64,000 nt of DNA, taken from a virus (Duplodnaviria; Caudoviricetes). The stretch is taken from positions 58,256 through 122,255 of IMG/VR virus record IMGVR_UViG_2806311071_000002, one strand, 5' to 3'. Shown here in pieces: positions 7,640 to 37,053 of this stretch; position 1 is the first letter of the stretch; each line of letters starts with the position of its first letter. Position numbers and translations under genes: made by a program. The notes below the pieces were generated by a model. It worked only from the letters and a program-made list of their open reading frames with translations, was not told the origin of the DNA and did no database searches.

Positions 7640-8368
7640 CTACATTTTTCTTAGTTTTTTATGTTCCTCTTTGATTGCATTAAAAAGATAAATAGAAAGA
7701 GGAGAATCCCAGCCAAACCCTTGTGTTTTAAATAACTTATTTATGTAGTTCCTTCTTTTCTTTATATTTGTAAGATCTAAAAATTCATCAGTATCTTTAT
7801 CTTTTATCCTGTCAATAATTAAATTTACGATTTTTTCAAAATCGTCGTTGTGATATATTGGTTTATCAATTATATTCCCATAAACCCTGTTGTAGCCTTT
7901 CGGAAAAGCTTCATAAGCCCTTATAGCAATATCCTCTAATTCATTTAATGTGGAATAAGAGCTAGAATATAGAGATATCAAATCAATTGTAAATTTGTTT
8001 CCCGATATATAGTCTTTATAAATATATTCGTTACCCTCATTGTTGAAATGCTTGAAAACTCTGTTATATATCTTAACAGCCTGACCAATGTAATATTTGT
8101 CATATGTGTGATTCCTAATAATATATATTCCTGAAAAATTCTTAATACCTAATTGATCTCTTATAGACTTTTTGCTATACTCAAGAATTTCTTCGGGAGA
8201 ATATGTAGGCAACTTCTTTCTTAGCTTATCAAGGTATTCTTTTGATTCCCTTTTATCTTTATTTCGTTTAAGTTCGGCATCCTTTCTGTAGTGATAAGAT
8301 GGAGCAAATTGTGGCACATAGCTATCTACAACACTTCGTATCCAATTGAGTTCTTCTTTTGTAAACAT
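7640..8368 (-). CDS. GIY-YIG nuclease domain protein
   Basis: GIYIIRN...YYIGQA...R...E...GYN motifs. Confidence 0.8.
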   Translation of the reverse strand: MFTKEELNWIRSVVDSYVPQFAPSYHYRKDAELKRNKDKRESKEYLDKLRKKLPTYSPEEILEYSKKSIRDQLGIKNFSGIYIIRNHTYDKYYIGQAVKIYNRVFKHFNNEGNEYIYKDYISGNKFTIDLISLYSSSYSTLNELEDIAIRAYEAFPKGYNRVYGNIIDKPIYHNDDFEKIVNLIIDRIKDKDTDEFLDLTNIKKRRNYINKLFKTQGFGWDSPLSIYLFNAIKEEHKKLRKM

Positions 8369-16312: not shown

Positions 16313-16416
16313 TAGCAACTAAAGGGGAAATTAATCCCCTTTAGAGATGTTATTTGCGTGTACGTTTGCGTTGTCTCTTTGGTCGGAGACGCTTGCGTAT
16401 ACGCTTTATTTTTTTG
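16313..16416 (+). ncRNA. SR6-like antisense antitoxin RNA (approximate ends)
   Basis: Plus-strand promoter TTTACA-16-TATAAT (16280-16307), then a hairpin, then a GCGTGTACG/CGTATACGC stem with a T run, antisense to the yonT 3' end. Confidence 0.7.
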
Positions 16417-16550: not shown

Positions 16551-17477
16551 TTATGTACACCTCCTTTCCCTATGTATCTATTATAACATTTTCCATACTA
16601 AATGTATACAATTATTATACTTATTTTTTATTTTTGTATCGTATTAGTGAATAGCGTATTGTCCATTATAATTGCGTATATGAGGATGTGGAGTTAAGTA
16701 GACTTATGGTATTAGATTGGAGATAAGAAGGCTTAGAAAGGCATTAGAAAGCTTCTGGAGGGATACTGTGAGTAATAATGTGAAAAAGTTAGGAATGATA
16801 TAGGATGATGTGCTGAATGGATATGTGAAAGAGGAAACAGGATGAAGGAAGACTATGAATGTGATTAATGCGGAGAATTGGAATGCGTAATATGATGAAG
16901 AATAAAAAAATAAGACTTCGATTTGCTTCCTCTCGTTATACCCACGATTATTTTTGATGAATGGTCATTCATATTTAAAGTACGCCCTTATTTAATTTTT
17001 GAAAATAAATCTTGTTTTTCGTTTGTAATCGTGGTAAAGCCTCAGTTTAATGGCTGAAATCATCAAATGCAGGTATAACGGATATTATATGTGCATTACA
17101 TTACCAGTATATGGGGGTGTATTAACATCTAAAGGCCAAAAAACAGGAACAAATGTACCCCTAGCACTTCCATTTCCACACCCAACTTATTTTTTCACTT
17201 TCCCATTTTTCACCCTATTTTTACATCGTAATCGCTATCGTAAAAGCCTATAATATCAATGTTTTTCCACCCCTCATTCTTCCCTTTTTCATCAGATTTT
17301 TAACTGAACGACATCTTTCCCTCTCTCCTGCCTACGTTTTACGATCACAAAACACCTATTGTCCCCTTTGACAGCCCTAAAACATTGCTATTTCAACTAA
17401 TTACCCCTTTCCGATCTTCATTTACGATAAGCACTTTTTCAGCTCACGATCACCAGGGGGTCATTAAAAATCAAAAT

Positions 17478-17503
17478 AAAAAAGCCACCTTAGTAGGCAG
17501 CTT
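17478..17503 (-). terminator. Terminator after the tubulin-like gene
   Basis: AAGCTGCCT-ACTA-AGGTGGCTT followed by TTTT on the minus strand. Confidence 0.7.
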
Positions 17504-17513
17504 CCCTTTAAAA

Positions 17514-18625
17514 TTAGCGCTTTAGTCTCTTCAGTGCCTCCATATACGAGGTCTTTTTCGATTCCTTGCTCTCCAGTTTCTTCGGTTTAAATAAATCCTC
17601 TCTACGTCGATTTCTAGCTTTATAAACAATTGTTTCTTTCATCTCAGTGTTCCCTGTTTCAATTAGATCGTCTAACTGCTTCATCCGTTCATTGATCCAG
17701 GTTAATCCACTAAGAATGGTTATCGCCCTATTCCCCTTTTCATAATGCCCCTTAAATAAGTCTAAAGGCATTTTGTTATCAAAGACATTAAACAGCTCAT
17801 TATACGAAATATGCTCCATTAAGAACTCATGAACATCCAGAATAACTCCTGCTCTCATCACATTTTTAAACTCAACTGGAGTGAATATCGAATTGTTCCA
17901 TGATTTCTGTATGTCTTCATGCAGCTTATCAAAATACTTGCCCTCATTTGTAAATTCAGTGAGGTCTGTTTGAGCAATAGTCATGATTCCTGGTGTATCA
18001 AAAAGCTGATTTAAATCCTTCCTGTCTAATGTACTGATCTTTGATCCTCTGTCCGTGTAATTGAGTAAGACTTCAATTAAATCAAGGAACATCTTGTTTG
18101 TTTCCTTGTATAGTCTACTCTCAGAAATCTTCCCTTCATATTTACTCAAAACCATTTGATTATCCAAAGGTAAAACACATGTCTCTGGCATAGATAAGTC
18201 ATCAAGTAACTCCAGTGAATTCATCTGGTTAACCATACTTCATTGTTGTCAGGAAGGATTGGTACAGCAACTATTGTTTTATGAGTGAGACATTCGTTTA
18301 ACAATTCTAATAATATAGGAGCTACCCCTGAACCAGTTCCACCAGCTGCAGAGAAAACAACAAAAATGACTTGAACTGAAGGCTTTTCCATTGTGTTCTT
18401 TATAAACTCAATAGAAGATTCCCAGTTGTTTTTCATATGTTTCGCTGCTACACTTCTTTCTTTGCCAACTCCTTCTGTTCCAACCAGATGAAGCTTATCC
18501 TGGACATTAACCAATGAATTAAGGTCTGAAAGTGAATAATTTATTGCAACAGAATGAAATCCTCTCTTCATTGCTTCATCTGCAACACTTCCACCGGCCT
18601 GACCTACTCCAATAAATCCAAACAT
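17514..18625 (-). pseudogene. TubZ/FtsZ-family tubulin-like GTPase split by a 1-nt frameshift near 18236 (about 370 aa if restored)
   Basis: GVGQAGG, GVGK and AAGGTGSG tubulin motifs in 18221-18625; LDN, T7-like DRKDL and a basic tail in 17514-18236; the two ORFs overlap. Confidence 0.8.
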
Positions 18626-18924
18626 TAAACCCTCTCCCCTTCTAATTGATATCTCAAAGCTTCGTATCCGTAATCAGTTAACATTACTTTGTGGGATCTA
18701 GCCCCAGCCACAATTTTTATAAACATAAGAGCTTCAAGCCGATATAATGACTTTCTTAAAGCTGCTTCTGTCAAAGGCGTACCTGCTTCAATAGCTATAT
18801 CTTTGATTTCAATTTTGGAAATTGCTTTAACTTTAATGTCTGCTCCCCTTTCCGAAAGAAAAGTCAAAATTGACAAGTCATCAAAATTTAGGTTTGAAGT
18901 TATCAACTCAAAATAATTCCCCAA
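18625..18924 (-). CDS. Winged-helix DNA-binding protein, TubR-like partner (likely TTG start, 99 aa)
   Basis: GGAGGGAG RBS; LRKSLYRLE..FI......K..LTDYG wHTH pattern; its stop overlaps the tubulin ATG. Confidence 0.6.
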   Translation of the reverse strand: MGNYFELITSNLNFDDLSILTFLSERGADIKVKAISKIEIKDIAIEAGTPLTEAALRKSLYRLEALMFIKIVAGARSHKVMLTDYGYEALRYQLEGERV

Positions 18925-19078
18925 AATTACTCCCTCCACAAAATGATCAGGCTTGATATTTCTGGATAAAAGATTACCCAATATGATAATATCCGAAGTA
19001 ATCATTTTCTGCAACTATTGTAATCATTAATGCTTACAAAAAGAACATTACATTTAAAAAATCAATAACTCGATTGAG

Positions 19079-19357
19079 ATGAAGGTATTAGTGTTGTATC
19101 TTTTAAATAAGAAAGGATGGTTATTATTGAAATACAAAATAAAAACCAATTTAGAACCTTATTTAAAAGAACGAGGTATTCAAAAAGTTTGGCTTGCAGA
19201 AAAAACCGGTGTAACAAAACAGCAGATTTCTAGATGGTCTAAAAATGATGAGAGTGGTTTCTGTAAGTATACCCCTTCACTTTCATATGCTCTTGTCATT
19301 TCAAAAGTCTTGGATTGCGACATCAAAGAAATTTTTGAACTTATTGAGCTGAAGTAA
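19079..19357 (+). CDS. XRE-family HTH regulator, divergent from the tubulin operon (true start likely about 19127)
   Basis: RGIQKVWLAEKTGVTKQQISRW...PSL..AL.I...L....EIF motif. Confidence 0.8.
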   Translation: MKVLVLYLLNKKGWLLLKYKIKTNLEPYLKERGIQKVWLAEKTGVTKQQISRWSKNDESGFCKYTPSLSYALVISKVLDCDIKEIFELIELK

Positions 19358-19377
19358 TTTTTCGGCTCAGAAAACCA

Positions 19378-19406
19378 TAGACAAAAATAAAATATAAGTA
19401 TATAAT
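19378..19406 (+). promoter_or_regulatory. sigmaA promoter for yonP-yonO (TAGACA-17-TATAAT) with the 19-bp element filling the spacer
   Basis: AAAAATAAAATATAAGTAT at 19383-19401; identical copy at 19617-19635. Confidence 0.7.
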
Positions 19407-19431
19407 ATAAACAAGAACAAGGAGGTGTGAT

Positions 19432-19611
19432 ATGCGGAAAACATACATGACTACTCACGTAATTGAATTTCTAGAATCAATTGTGCAAAATGATTGGGCT
19501 ACACAAAGCGAATGTGAGCTTTATGAGGACTTCAAACTCTTCGGTACTATTGATAAAGAATCGATTACATATAAAAGACTGGTTTATAAATATTTAAGGA
19601 GTGATTATTAA
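19432..19611 (+). CDS. yonP: Small protein, 59 aa MRKTYMTTHVIEFLESIV..., YonP-like
   Basis: Translated by hand; AAGGAGGTG RBS; precedes yonO. Confidence 0.7.
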   Translation: MRKTYMTTHVIEFLESIVQNDWATQSECELYEDFKLFGTIDKESITYKRLVYKYLRSDY

Positions 19612-19652
19612 TATTAAAAAATAAAATATAAGTATTAAATGGAGGGGATTGA

Positions 19653-26583: not shown

Positions 26584-27057
26584 ATGACGAATGAAGATTT
26601 TAAATACTTAAACAAGCATTTTGAACAGCTTATTAAATTAAGAGAATCTGGTTATAAATGTGATTTTGAGATTAGAACTGTCTTAGATAAATTGCATGAA
26701 AAAATGGGTCTTGAGCAAAGAGCAACTATCGGAAAATGTTCAATGCCTGGAATTAGTATAAAAGAACCTTCCGTTGTTGTTTCACAAGGAGCAGTTAATT
26801 ATTCACCGGCATTTGGGTCATCTAAAGGTGATACCCCCTTAAACAGTCAGAAAGATAAACCTAAGCTATTGATTCTTGGTGAACCTGGTTTGCTTTTTGA
26901 ATTTTTCAAAGCATATATTGTACCTGAATCAACTATAGTAAGATGCAATATAAGTCGAGATCAAGCTCAGATAATTACAGAGGAAATTGAGATAACTTTT
27001 TTGAAGAAGACGTCCTCTACTAGGGGGATGCGATTTGATTATAAATTGTCTATGTAA
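26584..27057 (+). CDS. Hypothetical protein
   Basis: 157-aa ORF with GAGG RBS. Confidence 0.6.
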   Translation: MTNEDFKYLNKHFEQLIKLRESGYKCDFEIRTVLDKLHEKMGLEQRATIGKCSMPGISIKEPSVVVSQGAVNYSPAFGSSKGDTPLNSQKDKPKLLILGEPGLLFEFFKAYIVPESTIVRCNISRDQAQIITEEIEITFLKKTSSTRGMRFDYKLSM

Positions 27058-36346: not shown

Positions 36347-37053
36347 ATGTGTTAAAGGATTTTTTCTTTTTAGGAAGACCTATTAACACTGATGTCGGTG
36401 CTATCAGCTTTATTCGCTTAAGAGATTATCCAGAGTACATAAGTGAACTAAATATGATGAAAATGAGCAAGAAGGAAATCATTAGAAACTTTTTAAAAAT
36501 CAACAATGACGGTTCATTAAATGATTTAATTATCGAATTGAAGAAGAACAGCCTCTTCAAAATTGTTCATGATTACTTACCTGAATTTAACCAAGCTTAT
36601 TTTAAAGTGTTTAGCAAAGTATTTGTGGACAAAGAGTCACTAAAGCTTATTGATCAGAAAGCATTTAATAATGTTAGAAAATTGATATTAGAGATGCATT
36701 GTTTGACTGAAGAGAAAATTGTTGAAAATGATGAATTGCAAGAGTTTAATGATTTAAATAATCAATTAAAGCTCCAAAATTCTCAAAATGATTTAAAGGA
36801 CATCGTCAGCTGTGTGACTGCTTTTAATGGATATACATATCAAGAGGTAGCCGATATGACAATTTATCAATTGTACCTGTCATATTACAGAATGGGCGAA
36901 ATAATGAATTATAACACTTCTGCGTTATTCGCTACTGTAGCAACTGATGTGAAAATCGGTGACTGGAATAGTCATGTAGATATGTATAAAGAAGAAAAGC
37001 ACCACCTCAGTACAGCAGATGCCAAAAATTTAGAGCAATTATTCGGAGACTGA
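36343..37053 (+). CDS. Tail-module protein (YomV-like)
   Basis: Synteny; 236 aa. Confidence 0.55.
   Translation: MNVLKDFFFLGRPINTDVGAISFIRLRDYPEYISELNMMKMSKKEIIRNFLKINNDGSLNDLIIELKKNSLFKIVHDYLPEFNQAYFKVFSKVFVDKESLKLIDQKAFNNVRKLILEMHCLTEEKIVENDELQEFNDLNNQLKLQNSQNDLKDIVSCVTAFNGYTYQEVADMTIYQLYLSYYRMGEIMNYNTSALFATVATDVKIGDWNSHVDMYKEEKHHLSTADAKNLEQLFGD

What the first reader, a model, noticed from the sequence alone, without database searches (positions are those of the whole stretch)
17514..19357. TubZ/TubR-like cytoskeletal module in an SPbeta-type phage
Seen: a 99-aa winged-helix gene is translationally coupled to a tubulin/FtsZ-family GTPase (GVGQAGG, AAGGTGSG, basic C-terminal tail), with a divergent XRE regulator. 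The block sits where SPbeta has yonS-yonR, next to the YonO RNAP operon. Known: type III partition (TubZRC) occurs on Bacillus plasmids and Clostridium phage c-st, and PhuZ positions jumbo-phage DNA. Inference: a family known for integrating should not need partitioning. The module may therefore support an episomal/carrier state, move phage DNA during lytic growth or into the forespore, or interfere with host FtsZ.
Basis: partly seen in the sequence, partly recalled or inferred. Interest (0 to 1): 0.8.

Follow-up and report, generated by a model that had tools for sequence, protein, structure and literature searches.

The report
Broken tubulin partition cassette in prophage
An SPbeta-like Bacillus prophage carries a real TubR/TubZ tubulin-type DNA-segregation gene pair, so far studied only on plasmids and a plasmid-like phage; it is conserved in many integrated relatives, but this copy is broken by a one-base deletion.

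Summary
Window 17514-19357 contains a 99-aa TubR gene that overlaps the start of a tubulin/FtsZ-family gene by one base, plus a divergent XRE regulator. The block lies next to yonP-yonO.

- **Identity:** TubR matches the solved TubR of plasmid pBM400 (E 2e-12). An intact TubZ relative models confidently, and its best structural match is phage c-st TubZ. In a tree it falls in one clade with pBM400 TubZ, apart from PhuZ and FtsZ.
- **State of this copy:** tubZ is split by a 1-nt deletion at window 18235.
- **Relatives:** 25 of 27 copies examined are intact, with dN/dS about 0.06. Of 80 YonO-bearing viral contigs, 27 carry the pair in the same slot.
- **Lifestyle:** nearly all carriers are integrated proviruses. 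Two are filed as circular 122-125 kb "plasmids" and still encode an integrase.
- **Alleles:** the DNA-binding part of TubR, short repeats spaced 22 bp apart and the XRE gene swap together as allelic cassettes.

My best reading is a type III partition machine that acts on the excised or episomal phage genome. At which stage of the life cycle it acts is inferred, not shown.

I found no paper linking SPbeta-like phages and TubZ. This scan has noted the same module on other genomes. It is a new member of a known kind, of moderate interest.

The parts
18221..18625 (-). tubZ, N-terminal piece (residues 1-130 plus 4 out-of-frame residues): GTP-binding part with GVGQAGG and AAGGTGSG
   Evidence: ORF. 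Pfam Tubulin E 1.4e-16. 99% identical to residues 1-130 of intact relatives.
18233..18236 (-). Frameshift site: one T missing (GTATTGG to GTATGG) at gene nt 391. The deletion also creates an ATG that opens the C-terminal piece in the correct frame.
   Evidence: Alignments. Position computed. Read from the sequence.
17514..18236 (-). tubZ, C-terminal piece (Met plus residues 132-370): rest of the GTPase domain, T7 loop (STLDRKD), C-terminal domain, basic flexible tail and terminal helix
   Evidence: ORF. 96% identical to residues 131-370 of intact relatives. Fold and tail taken from the model of the intact L019 protein.
17478..17507 (-). Terminator-like hairpin with a T-run directly after the tubZ stop
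18625..18924 (-). tubR, 99-aa centromere-binding protein homologue (allele type B), translationally coupled to tubZ
   Evidence: phmmer against PDB 4asn (TubR of pBM400): E 2.2e-12 over residues 1-94. Start and overlap. The exact protein is found on 12 contigs of up to 4.2 Mb.
18925..19126 (.). Divergent tubR/XRE control region and candidate tubC. AATGATTAC occurs twice, 22 bp apart (plus-strand 18998-19006 and 19020-19028). There is an inverted GATTAC at 18972-18977 and a degenerate partner at 19029-19037.
   Evidence: It is the only cluster of this hexamer in the 122-kb element. Other TubR alleles have different repeats at the same 22-bp spacing.
19127..19357 (+). XRE-family HTH regulator (76 aa from the TTG start; the longest ORF starts at 19079), divergent from tubR
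   Evidence: Pfam HTH_26 E 6.4e-9 and HTH_3 E 5e-7. A 76-aa gene is called in relative L128. It belongs to the allelic cassette.

Best explanation
This is a type III (TubZRC) DNA-segregation cassette of the pBM400 clade. It is an accessory module that many SPbeta-like phages keep in one slot, beside yonP-yonO.

**How an intact copy would work (inferred from homology).** TubR, a small winged-helix protein, binds short repeats in the tubR/XRE intergenic region. That would both repress the operon and mark the phage DNA. TubZ polymerises with GTP into filaments. Its flexible basic tail and conserved terminal helix engage the TubR-DNA complex, and the filament moves the DNA.

**What it acts on.** The substrate can only be phage DNA that is free of the chromosome. 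I therefore read it as a device that keeps or positions the circular, excised or not-yet-integrated phage genome. Most likely it lets the genome be inherited as a low-copy episome for a while, in a facultative plasmid-prophage or carrier state.

**Alleles and this copy.** The DNA-binding part of TubR, its repeats and the XRE gene are exchanged as allelic cassettes, which would give different specificities. In this window the motor gene is disabled by a recent 1-nt deletion, if that deletion is not a sequencing error.

**Odds.** Shown: homology, conservation, selection, the frameshift and the integrated state. Inferred: DNA binding, filament formation and the stage of action. I put about 0.9 on a true TubZRC homologue and about 0.4 on the episomal-maintenance stage.
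For: - **TubR:** it matches the solved pBM400 TubR (4asn) at E 2.2e-12 over its full length.
- **TubZ, sequence and fold:** the best PDB sequence hits are c-st TubZ at E 1e-14. The AlphaFold model has pLDDT 92, and the top Foldseek hits are c-st TubZ at E 1e-23.
- **TubZ, tree:** all copies from the SPbeta slot group with pBM400 TubZ (SH-aLRT 100). PhuZ, FtsZ and pBtoxis TubZ fall outside.
- **Selection:** 25 of 27 copies are intact, in 21 distinct nucleotide alleles. dN/dS is 0.058 at mean dS 0.26, including in the tail.
- **Conserved slot:** 27 of 80 YonO-bearing IMG/VR loci carry the pair in the same place. Three of these are distant lineages with YonO only 51-58% identical.
- **Insertion:** relative to Goe11 and SPBc2 the cassette is an insertion.
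- **Allele-specific repeats:** each TubR allele has its own repeats at 22-bp spacing, and they form a unique cluster in the genome.
- **Allelic cassette:** its boundaries are about 18680-19650, flanked by tubZ and yonO that are more than 90% identical.
- **Tail:** a disordered linker is followed by a conserved terminal helix.
- **Episomal hints:** two carriers are filed as circular plasmids of 122 and 125 kb and have intact serine recombinases. c-st, a plasmid prophage, shares YonO and TubZRC.
- **Neighbourhood:** a type I toxin-antitoxin antitoxin (SR6) lies next door.
Against: - Almost all carriers are integrated: IMG/VR labels them 'provirus', one shows spoVK/nrd host flanks, and relatives sit on 4.1-4.3 Mb contigs. 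A plasmid-like phase is therefore at best transient.
- A circular 'plasmid' record can also come from replicating or packaged phage DNA. One SPbeta-like 'plasmid' lacks tubZ.
- The repeat set is much smaller than classical tubC arrays, and the XRE protein could equally be what binds it.
- No TubY-like gene follows tubZ.
- None of about 24 isolated SPbeta-like phages of B. subtilis has the module, so it is dispensable for the family.
- The window's own copy is broken.
Confidence: 0.55

Rival explanations
1. The pair works in the lytic cycle. After induction or infection, TubR tethers replicating phage DNA to TubZ filaments, which place it for efficient replication or packaging. This is how the actin pair AlpAC serves the integrated prophage CGP3 and how PhuZ centres jumbo-phage DNA. 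No plasmid-like inheritance is involved.
For: - Carriers are integrated phages that keep their integrase.
- Strong purifying selection across integrated copies points to a stage that every phage passes through.
- The module adjoins the yonP-yonO transcription operon.
- Jumbo phage G also has a small gene followed by a TubZ-like gene.
- There is a precedent of an integrated prophage whose actin-like protein is needed for viral DNA replication (PMC4446434, listed).
Against: - The closest characterised relatives (pBM400, c-st) are partition systems of plasmid-state replicons. PhuZ lies outside the clade and has no TubR.
- The operon does not carry the repeated strong promoter motif found in front of yonP and yonO.
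- The module is absent from all isolated SPbeta-like phages of B. subtilis, which grow lytically without it.
Confidence: 0.3
2. The module is a functionless passenger or decaying relic picked up from a plasmid.
For: - The window's copy and one other (L028) are frameshifted.
- The module is accessory and missing from many relatives.
Against: - dN/dS is 0.058 over 21 distinct alleles, and 25 of 27 copies are intact.
- The slot is the same in lineages whose YonO is only 51-58% identical.
- The window's frameshift sits on a background with 1 SNP in 753 nt against an intact relative, so it is recent.
Confidence: 0.05
3. The module carries phage DNA into the forespore or keeps it in spores. Alternatively, the phage tubulin interferes with host FtsZ and cell division.
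For: - The hosts are spore formers, and one carrier is inserted in the sporulation gene spoVK.
- TubZ belongs to the tubulin/FtsZ superfamily.
Against: - There is no specific evidence for either role.
- TubZ scores 31.7 bits against the FtsZ equivalog, whose cut-off is 295.
- It has a TubR partner, like partition systems.
- An integrated prophage reaches the forespore with the chromosome anyway.
Confidence: 0.07

Closest known systems
TubR/TubZ of Priestia (Bacillus) megaterium plasmid pBM400 (TubR structure PDB 4asn)
   Same: - TubR aligns over its full length (E 2.2e-12).
- TubZ is 47.5% identical in the GTPase part and lies in the same well-supported clade.
- Gene order and translational coupling are the same.
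- Both have only short repeats upstream of tubR.
   Different: - pBM400 is a 54-kb plasmid. Here the host element is a roughly 125-kb integrating phage.
- Here a divergent XRE gene is attached and swapped together with the N-terminal part of TubR.
- The window's tubZ is frameshifted.
TubZRC(+TubY) of Clostridium botulinum phage-plasmid c-st
   Same: - It is phage-borne.
- It is the best structural match to the TubZ model (4xcq and 3v3t, E 1e-23, TM 0.83-0.86 normalised to the target).
- c-st and its relatives also encode a YonO homologue about 10 kb from TubZ.
   Different: - c-st is maintained as a plasmid prophage. The carriers here are integrated.
- c-st TubZ falls in a sister clade and has a Pfam TubZ_C_3 domain that is not detected here.
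- c-st has a roughly 350-bp split tubC and a TubY (PMC6009700). Here the control region is about 200 bp and there is no TubY.
TubZRC of Bacillus thuringiensis pBtoxis
   Same: It has the same three-part logic (wHTH TubR, tubulin-like TubZ, repeats upstream of tubR) and the same fold (2xka, E 4e-21).
   Different: It is distant in sequence: a long branch outside the clade, with no phmmer hit at E<0.01. Its TubZ is 484 aa, against 370 aa here.
AlpA/AlpC of Corynebacterium glutamicum prophage CGP3 (functional analogue)
   Same: An integrated prophage encodes a plasmid-type cytoskeletal filament (PMC4446434).
   Different: It is actin-like rather than tubulin-like and has no sequence relation. I did not read that paper beyond its abstract.
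PhuZ of phiKZ-like jumbo phages
   Same: It is a phage tubulin that positions phage DNA.
   Different: There is no TubR partner. It lies outside the clade on a long branch, and the PHROG PhuZ match to the N-piece is weak (E 2.4e-7).

Membership tests
Type III partition system (TubZRC) | Tubulin/FtsZ-fold GTPase with a glycine-rich signature and a T7-loop acidic residue | tested here: met
   Pfam Tubulin at E 5e-20 on an intact relative. GGTGSG is present, and D201 is invariant in a 70-sequence alignment. The AF2 model has pLDDT 92 with TubZ as top hits. In the window itself the gene is split at residue 130/131.
Type III partition system (TubZRC) | Falls with characterised TubZ proteins rather than with PhuZ, FtsZ or CetZ in a tree | tested here: met
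   It forms a clade with pBM400 TubZ (SH-aLRT 100), with the c-st TubZ group as sister. PhuZ and FtsZ lie outside. This was a quick IQ-TREE search of 79 rows, and the outgroups sit on long branches. CetZ was not in the tree.
Type III partition system (TubZRC) | Small winged-helix centromere-binding protein TubR encoded directly upstream in the same operon | tested here: met
   The 99-aa protein matches TubR 4asn at E 2.2e-12. Its stop overlaps the tubZ start by one base. Pfam gives only weak wHTH hits, and the AF2 model was too poor to use (pLDDT 64).
Type III partition system (TubZRC) | tubC: blocks of direct repeats upstream of tubR that TubR binds | tested here: inconclusive
   There are only two 9-mers 22 bp apart, plus one or two inverted hexamers. 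They are allele-specific and form a unique cluster in the genome. This is much smaller than the arrays described for pBtoxis and c-st. The binding protein is unknown and could be XRE.
Type III partition system (TubZRC) | Flexible C-terminal tail of TubZ that engages TubR-tubC | not testable with these tools
   The tail is present: residues 330-360 have low pLDDT, and a conserved terminal helix follows.
Type III partition system (TubZRC) | GTP-dependent polymerisation, and stabilisation of a low-copy replicon | not testable with these tools
   This needs biochemistry and a plasmid-stability assay.
Type III partition system (TubZRC) | Usual context: carried on an extrachromosomal low-copy replicon | tested here: not met
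   The window's record and 25 of the 29 relatives' records checked are proviruses, and none is classed circular. One is inserted in spoVK. Two carriers are filed as circular plasmids. This is the customary setting of the family rather than part of the protein-family definition.
PhuZ (jumbo-phage tubulin) | Groups with PhuZ; no TubR adaptor; jumbo phage with a phage nucleus | tested here: not met
   PhuZ of phiKZ lies outside the clade. A TubR is present. The element is an SPbeta-like phage of about 125 kb.
FtsZ (cell division) | Reaches the FtsZ equivalog score | tested here: not met
   TIGR00065 gives 31.7 bits against a cut-off of 295.2. Database names such as 'cell division protein FtsZ' are therefore misleading.

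The most novel reading that the evidence does not exclude
SPbeta-like temperate phages, textbook integrating phages, are facultative phage-plasmids. With TubZRC, the excised or not-yet-integrated genome can be inherited as a low-copy episome, for example when the attachment site in a sporulation gene is absent, occupied or must be restored. The swappable TubR/repeat/XRE cassettes would then define incompatibility groups among co-resident phages.
Probability: 0.3. Interest if true: 0.75.

Novelty: new member of a known kind. Interest (0 to 1): 0.5.

Why it matters
Tubulin-based partition has been studied on a handful of Bacillus plasmids and on one plasmid-state Clostridium phage. This work shows the same machine as a common accessory module of integrating SPbeta-like prophages in the Bacillus amyloliquefaciens and pumilus groups and beyond. 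It is under strong selection and always sits in the same slot.

That raises a testable question: what does a chromosome-borne phage need a plasmid segregation motor for? Either these phages have an unrecognised plasmid-like phase, or TubZRC has a role in lytic DNA handling.

The hosts are genetically tractable, so this may be the easiest setting in which to study TubZRC in vivo. On the practical side, these genes are widely mislabelled 'cell division protein FtsZ' in Bacillus genomes. Two 'plasmids' in public records are in fact SPbeta-like phage genomes.

Tried and rejected
- **Phage isolates:** blastn of the block against them found nothing, and tblastn found only phage G, c-st and D-1873.
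- **Long iteron arrays:** direct, inverted and tandem repeat finders show none near the operon. Only a k-mer analysis found the short repeats spaced 22 bp apart.
- **Non-coding stretch downstream of tubZ (16887-17346):** I considered it as a centromere and rejected it, because it is conserved in SPBc2 and Goe11, which lack tubZRC. Rfam finds nothing there, and RNAalifold shows no covariation.
- **XRE as a YonR homologue:** rejected, with no BLAST similarity.
- **TubR structure:** the model from eight sequences was of low confidence (pLDDT 64), so I did not use it for a fold search.
- **Aylett & Lowe 2012:** the paper is not held in the library, so I could not compare with the published pBM400 tubC.
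- **Pfam TubZ C-terminal domain models:** they do not hit this clade.
- **Recombinase search in the window's own record:** it found none. In sister records the recombinase sits at the extreme end, so it was probably trimmed off here.

Full report
**What is in the window.**
On the minus strand, a tubulin/FtsZ-family gene occupies 17514-18625 in two overlapping frames. The N-terminal piece is 134 aa (18221-18625) and carries GVGQAGG and AAGGTGSG. The C-terminal piece is 240 aa (17514-18236) and ends in a basic tail. The N-piece hits Pfam Tubulin at E 1.4e-16.

Directly upstream lies a small gene. Judged from relatives and from a GGAGGGAG ribosome-binding site, it starts at the TTG at 18924 and encodes 99 aa. 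Its TAA stop overlaps the tubZ ATG by one base.

A divergent XRE-family gene lies on the plus strand. Its ORF starts at 19079, its likely start is the TTG at 19127, and it ends at 19357. A terminator-like hairpin follows tubZ.

**The break.**
An alignment with intact relatives shows a single missing T at window 18235 (gene nt 391). Against the closest intact relative found (L128), the first 753 nt of the gene differ by one SNP plus this deletion. The lesion is thus either recent or a sequencing error.

The deletion happens to create an ATG that opens the downstream piece in the right frame. The split falls in the loop between strand S5 and helix H5 of the GTPase domain, so a working two-piece protein seems unlikely.

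Neither piece is on record as a called protein elsewhere. The window's exact TubR, by contrast, is found on 12 contigs of up to 4.2 Mb.

**What the proteins are.**
- The 99-aa protein matches the solved TubR of pBM400 (PDB 4asn) over its full length at E 2.2e-12.
- An intact 370-aa relative gives c-st TubZ as its best PDB sequence match (E 1e-14).
- That relative's AlphaFold model is confident (pLDDT 92.1). Foldseek ranks c-st TubZ first (E 1e-23), followed by CetZ and the B. cereus and B. thuringiensis TubZ structures.
- In a tree of 79 proteins with labelled references, every copy from the SPbeta slot groups with pBM400 TubZ (SH-aLRT 100). The c-st group is sister. pBtoxis TubZ, phiKZ PhuZ and E. 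coli FtsZ lie outside on long branches.
- The FtsZ equivalog model scores 31.7 bits against a cut-off of 295.
- The model ends in a disordered stretch (about residues 330-360) and a short terminal helix. The helix motif is conserved even in distant relatives, as expected of a TubZ tail.

**Context.**
The window is part of a 122-kb IMG/VR provirus. Its YonO, HU and neighbouring genes are 80-87% identical to those of SPbeta-like phages. An SR6 antitoxin RNA of the yonT type I toxin-antitoxin system lies at 16316-16415.

Compared with Goe11 and SPBc2, window 17346 to about 19371-19519 (tubZ, tubR, XRE) is an insertion between a conserved non-coding segment and yonP. SPbeta's yonR-yonS map to another gap (16637-16887), and the XRE protein is unrelated to YonR.

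**Distribution and selection.**
- IMG/VR holds 24 loci with a TubZ that is 96-100% identical. One GTDB genome contig and two PLSDB records add to these.
- Of the 27 copies examined, 25 are intact. Only the window and L028 carry frameshifts, and these are independent.
- Across 21 distinct intact alleles, dN/dS is 0.058 at mean dS 0.26, and it is similar in the GTPase domain, the C-domain and the tail.
- The 90%-identity cluster has 151 members from the B. amyloliquefaciens group and some B. subtilis, mostly named 'cell division protein FtsZ'.
- Of the 80 best YonO-bearing IMG/VR loci, 27 carry a TubR-TubZ pair in the same slot. They include B. pumilus-type copies and three distant lineages whose YonO is 51-58% identical.
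- None of about 24 isolated SPbeta-like phages, all from B. subtilis, has the module.
- The wider family is large: 1035 clusters at E<0.001.

**Integrated or episomal?**
I checked the IMG/VR class of 29 relatives' records. Twenty-five are 'provirus', three are 'linear' and none is circular; the one remaining record is a GTDB bacterial genome and has no such class. The window's own record is also a provirus. Where a large serine recombinase was captured, it sits at the very end of the record. One record has nrdI/E/F host genes on one side. On the other side it has the recombinase followed by the C-terminal part of SpoVK and by HflX, so it is inserted in spoVK. Integration is therefore the rule.

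Two carriers, however, are deposited as complete circular plasmids. These are B. velezensis HMB26553 plaBV1 (122,487 bp) and a B. pumilus FUA2116 plasmid (124,561 bp). Both have YonO/HU/YonK-type genes and intact recombinases. The paper describing plaBV1 treats it simply as a plasmid (PMC10177454).

This is only a hint. A tubZ-less SPbeta-like element is also filed as a plasmid, and replicating or packaged phage DNA can also assemble as a circle. Extrachromosomal SPbeta-like DNA and a possible carrier state have been discussed before, without mention of tubulin (bioRxiv 10.1101/2020.05.06.055103).

**Candidate centromere and alleles.**
The region between tubR and XRE is about 200 bp long. It holds AATGATTAC twice, 22 bp apart, plus an inverted GATTAC and a degenerate partner. 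This is the only cluster of that hexamer in the 122-kb element.

There are three TubR alleles: type A (94 aa, the majority), type B (the window, L019, L031, L128) and a B. pumilus type. Types A and B have different repeats at the same 22-bp spacing, and the B. pumilus type shows a similar but less exact pattern.

Between types A and B, the divergent block runs from about 18680 to 19650. It covers the N-terminal 85 residues of TubR, the repeats, XRE and the yonP-like gene. It is flanked by tubZ and yonO that are more than 90% identical.

The repeat set is far smaller than the tubC arrays described for pBtoxis and c-st (PMC6009700), although pBM400 also shows only a short repeated AGTATCT. Which protein binds the repeats is unknown. 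XRE is absent from two of the distant carriers.

**Reading.**
Identity as a TubZRC-type cassette is well supported. The mechanism (TubR on repeats, TubZ filaments, tail contact) is inferred from homology.

A segregation motor can only act on DNA that is free of the chromosome. The module must therefore serve the excised, replicating or not-yet-integrated phage genome.

I favour plasmid-like maintenance for four reasons: the nearest characterised relatives are plasmid-state systems, the two circular records, the allelic specificity cassettes, and a promoter region distinct from the repeated phage promoter motif. A lytic-cycle positioning role is a serious rival, given the precedents of AlpAC in prophage CGP3 (PMC4446434) and of PhuZ. 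A relic is unlikely given the selection.

**Novelty.**
Full-text searches found no paper that links SPbeta-like phages with TubZ. Earlier notes of this scan describe the same module in SPbeta-like prophages of other genomes and reached the same reading. I checked the main claims independently here.

It is a new member of a known kind in an unusual setting, and this particular copy is broken.

**Limits.**
- The TubR model was poor.
- The tree used a quick search.
- The key pBM400 tubC paper was not available.

Noticed in passing
window 16887-17346 (core 17095-17260): A non-coding segment between tubZ and the yonT/SR6 region is conserved at about 71-75% in SPBc2 and Goe11 and also in the B. pumilus type. 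Its core is nearly invariant (...TATGGGGGTRTATT.ACATC...GAACA.ATGT.CCC.TAGCACTTCCATTTCCACACCC... and ATCGTA...GCTATCGTAAAAGCCT). It has no Rfam match and no covariation, and its role is unknown. It might be a cis element such as an origin or a protein-binding site.
   Followed up: partly
window 19381-19406, 19606-19640, 16616-16637 (inverted); G000 7772-7805, 26689-26723, 36989-37016: A promoter-like motif (TAGACA, 17 nt, TATAAT, embedded in ACAAAAATAAAATATAAGTATA) recurs in front of yonP, yonO and the leftward yonT-side genes, and at three other places in the phage. It is probably a shared phage promoter/operator element. The tubRZ promoter region lacks it.
   Followed up: no
window 16316-16415 (+): There is an SR6 antitoxin RNA (Rfam RF02892, 84 bits, E 1e-14) opposite small hydrophobic ORFs. 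This is the yonT/SR6-type type I toxin-antitoxin module, next to the partition cassette.
   Followed up: no
PLSDB NZ_CP097468.1 (L001), NZ_CP154907.1 (L002), NZ_CP064819.1: Three records of 118-125 kb filed as Bacillus 'plasmids' are SPbeta-like phage genomes, with YonO, HU and YonK genes. I confirmed an intact large serine recombinase in the first two and did not check the third. plaBV1 has a very different YonO allele (25% identity) although its tubZ is 96% identical to the window's.
   Followed up: partly
L041 (G002:C1:136000-140932) and L040: The SPbeta-like prophage of relative L019 is inserted in the sporulation gene spoVK. The recombinase gene abuts the SpoVK C-terminal part and is followed by hflX, with nrdI/E/F at the other end of the record.
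   Followed up: partly
L039 (phage c-st), ACSJ01000017, NC_015417: C. botulinum type C/D phage-plasmids encode YonO homologues. They are up to 50% identical in D-1873 and BKT015925 and split in c-st, and they lie about 10 kb from TubZ. The YonO-TubZ neighbourhood is therefore shared between the c-st group and SPbeta-like phages.
   Followed up: partly
L007 (NZ_JBHVTC010000023.1, 133,358 bp): A phage-sized contig carrying this module sits in an assembly labelled Streptomyces sp. NPDC058103. This is probably Bacillus or phage contamination of that assembly.
   Followed up: no
L125 (Bacillus phage G, 78389-79816): Jumbo phage G has a 98-aa gene (gp137) directly followed by a 376-aa TubZ-like gene (gp138). 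This looks like a TubR-TubZ-like pair in a phage that is not SPbeta-like. In the tree it falls in a separate clade.
   Followed up: partly
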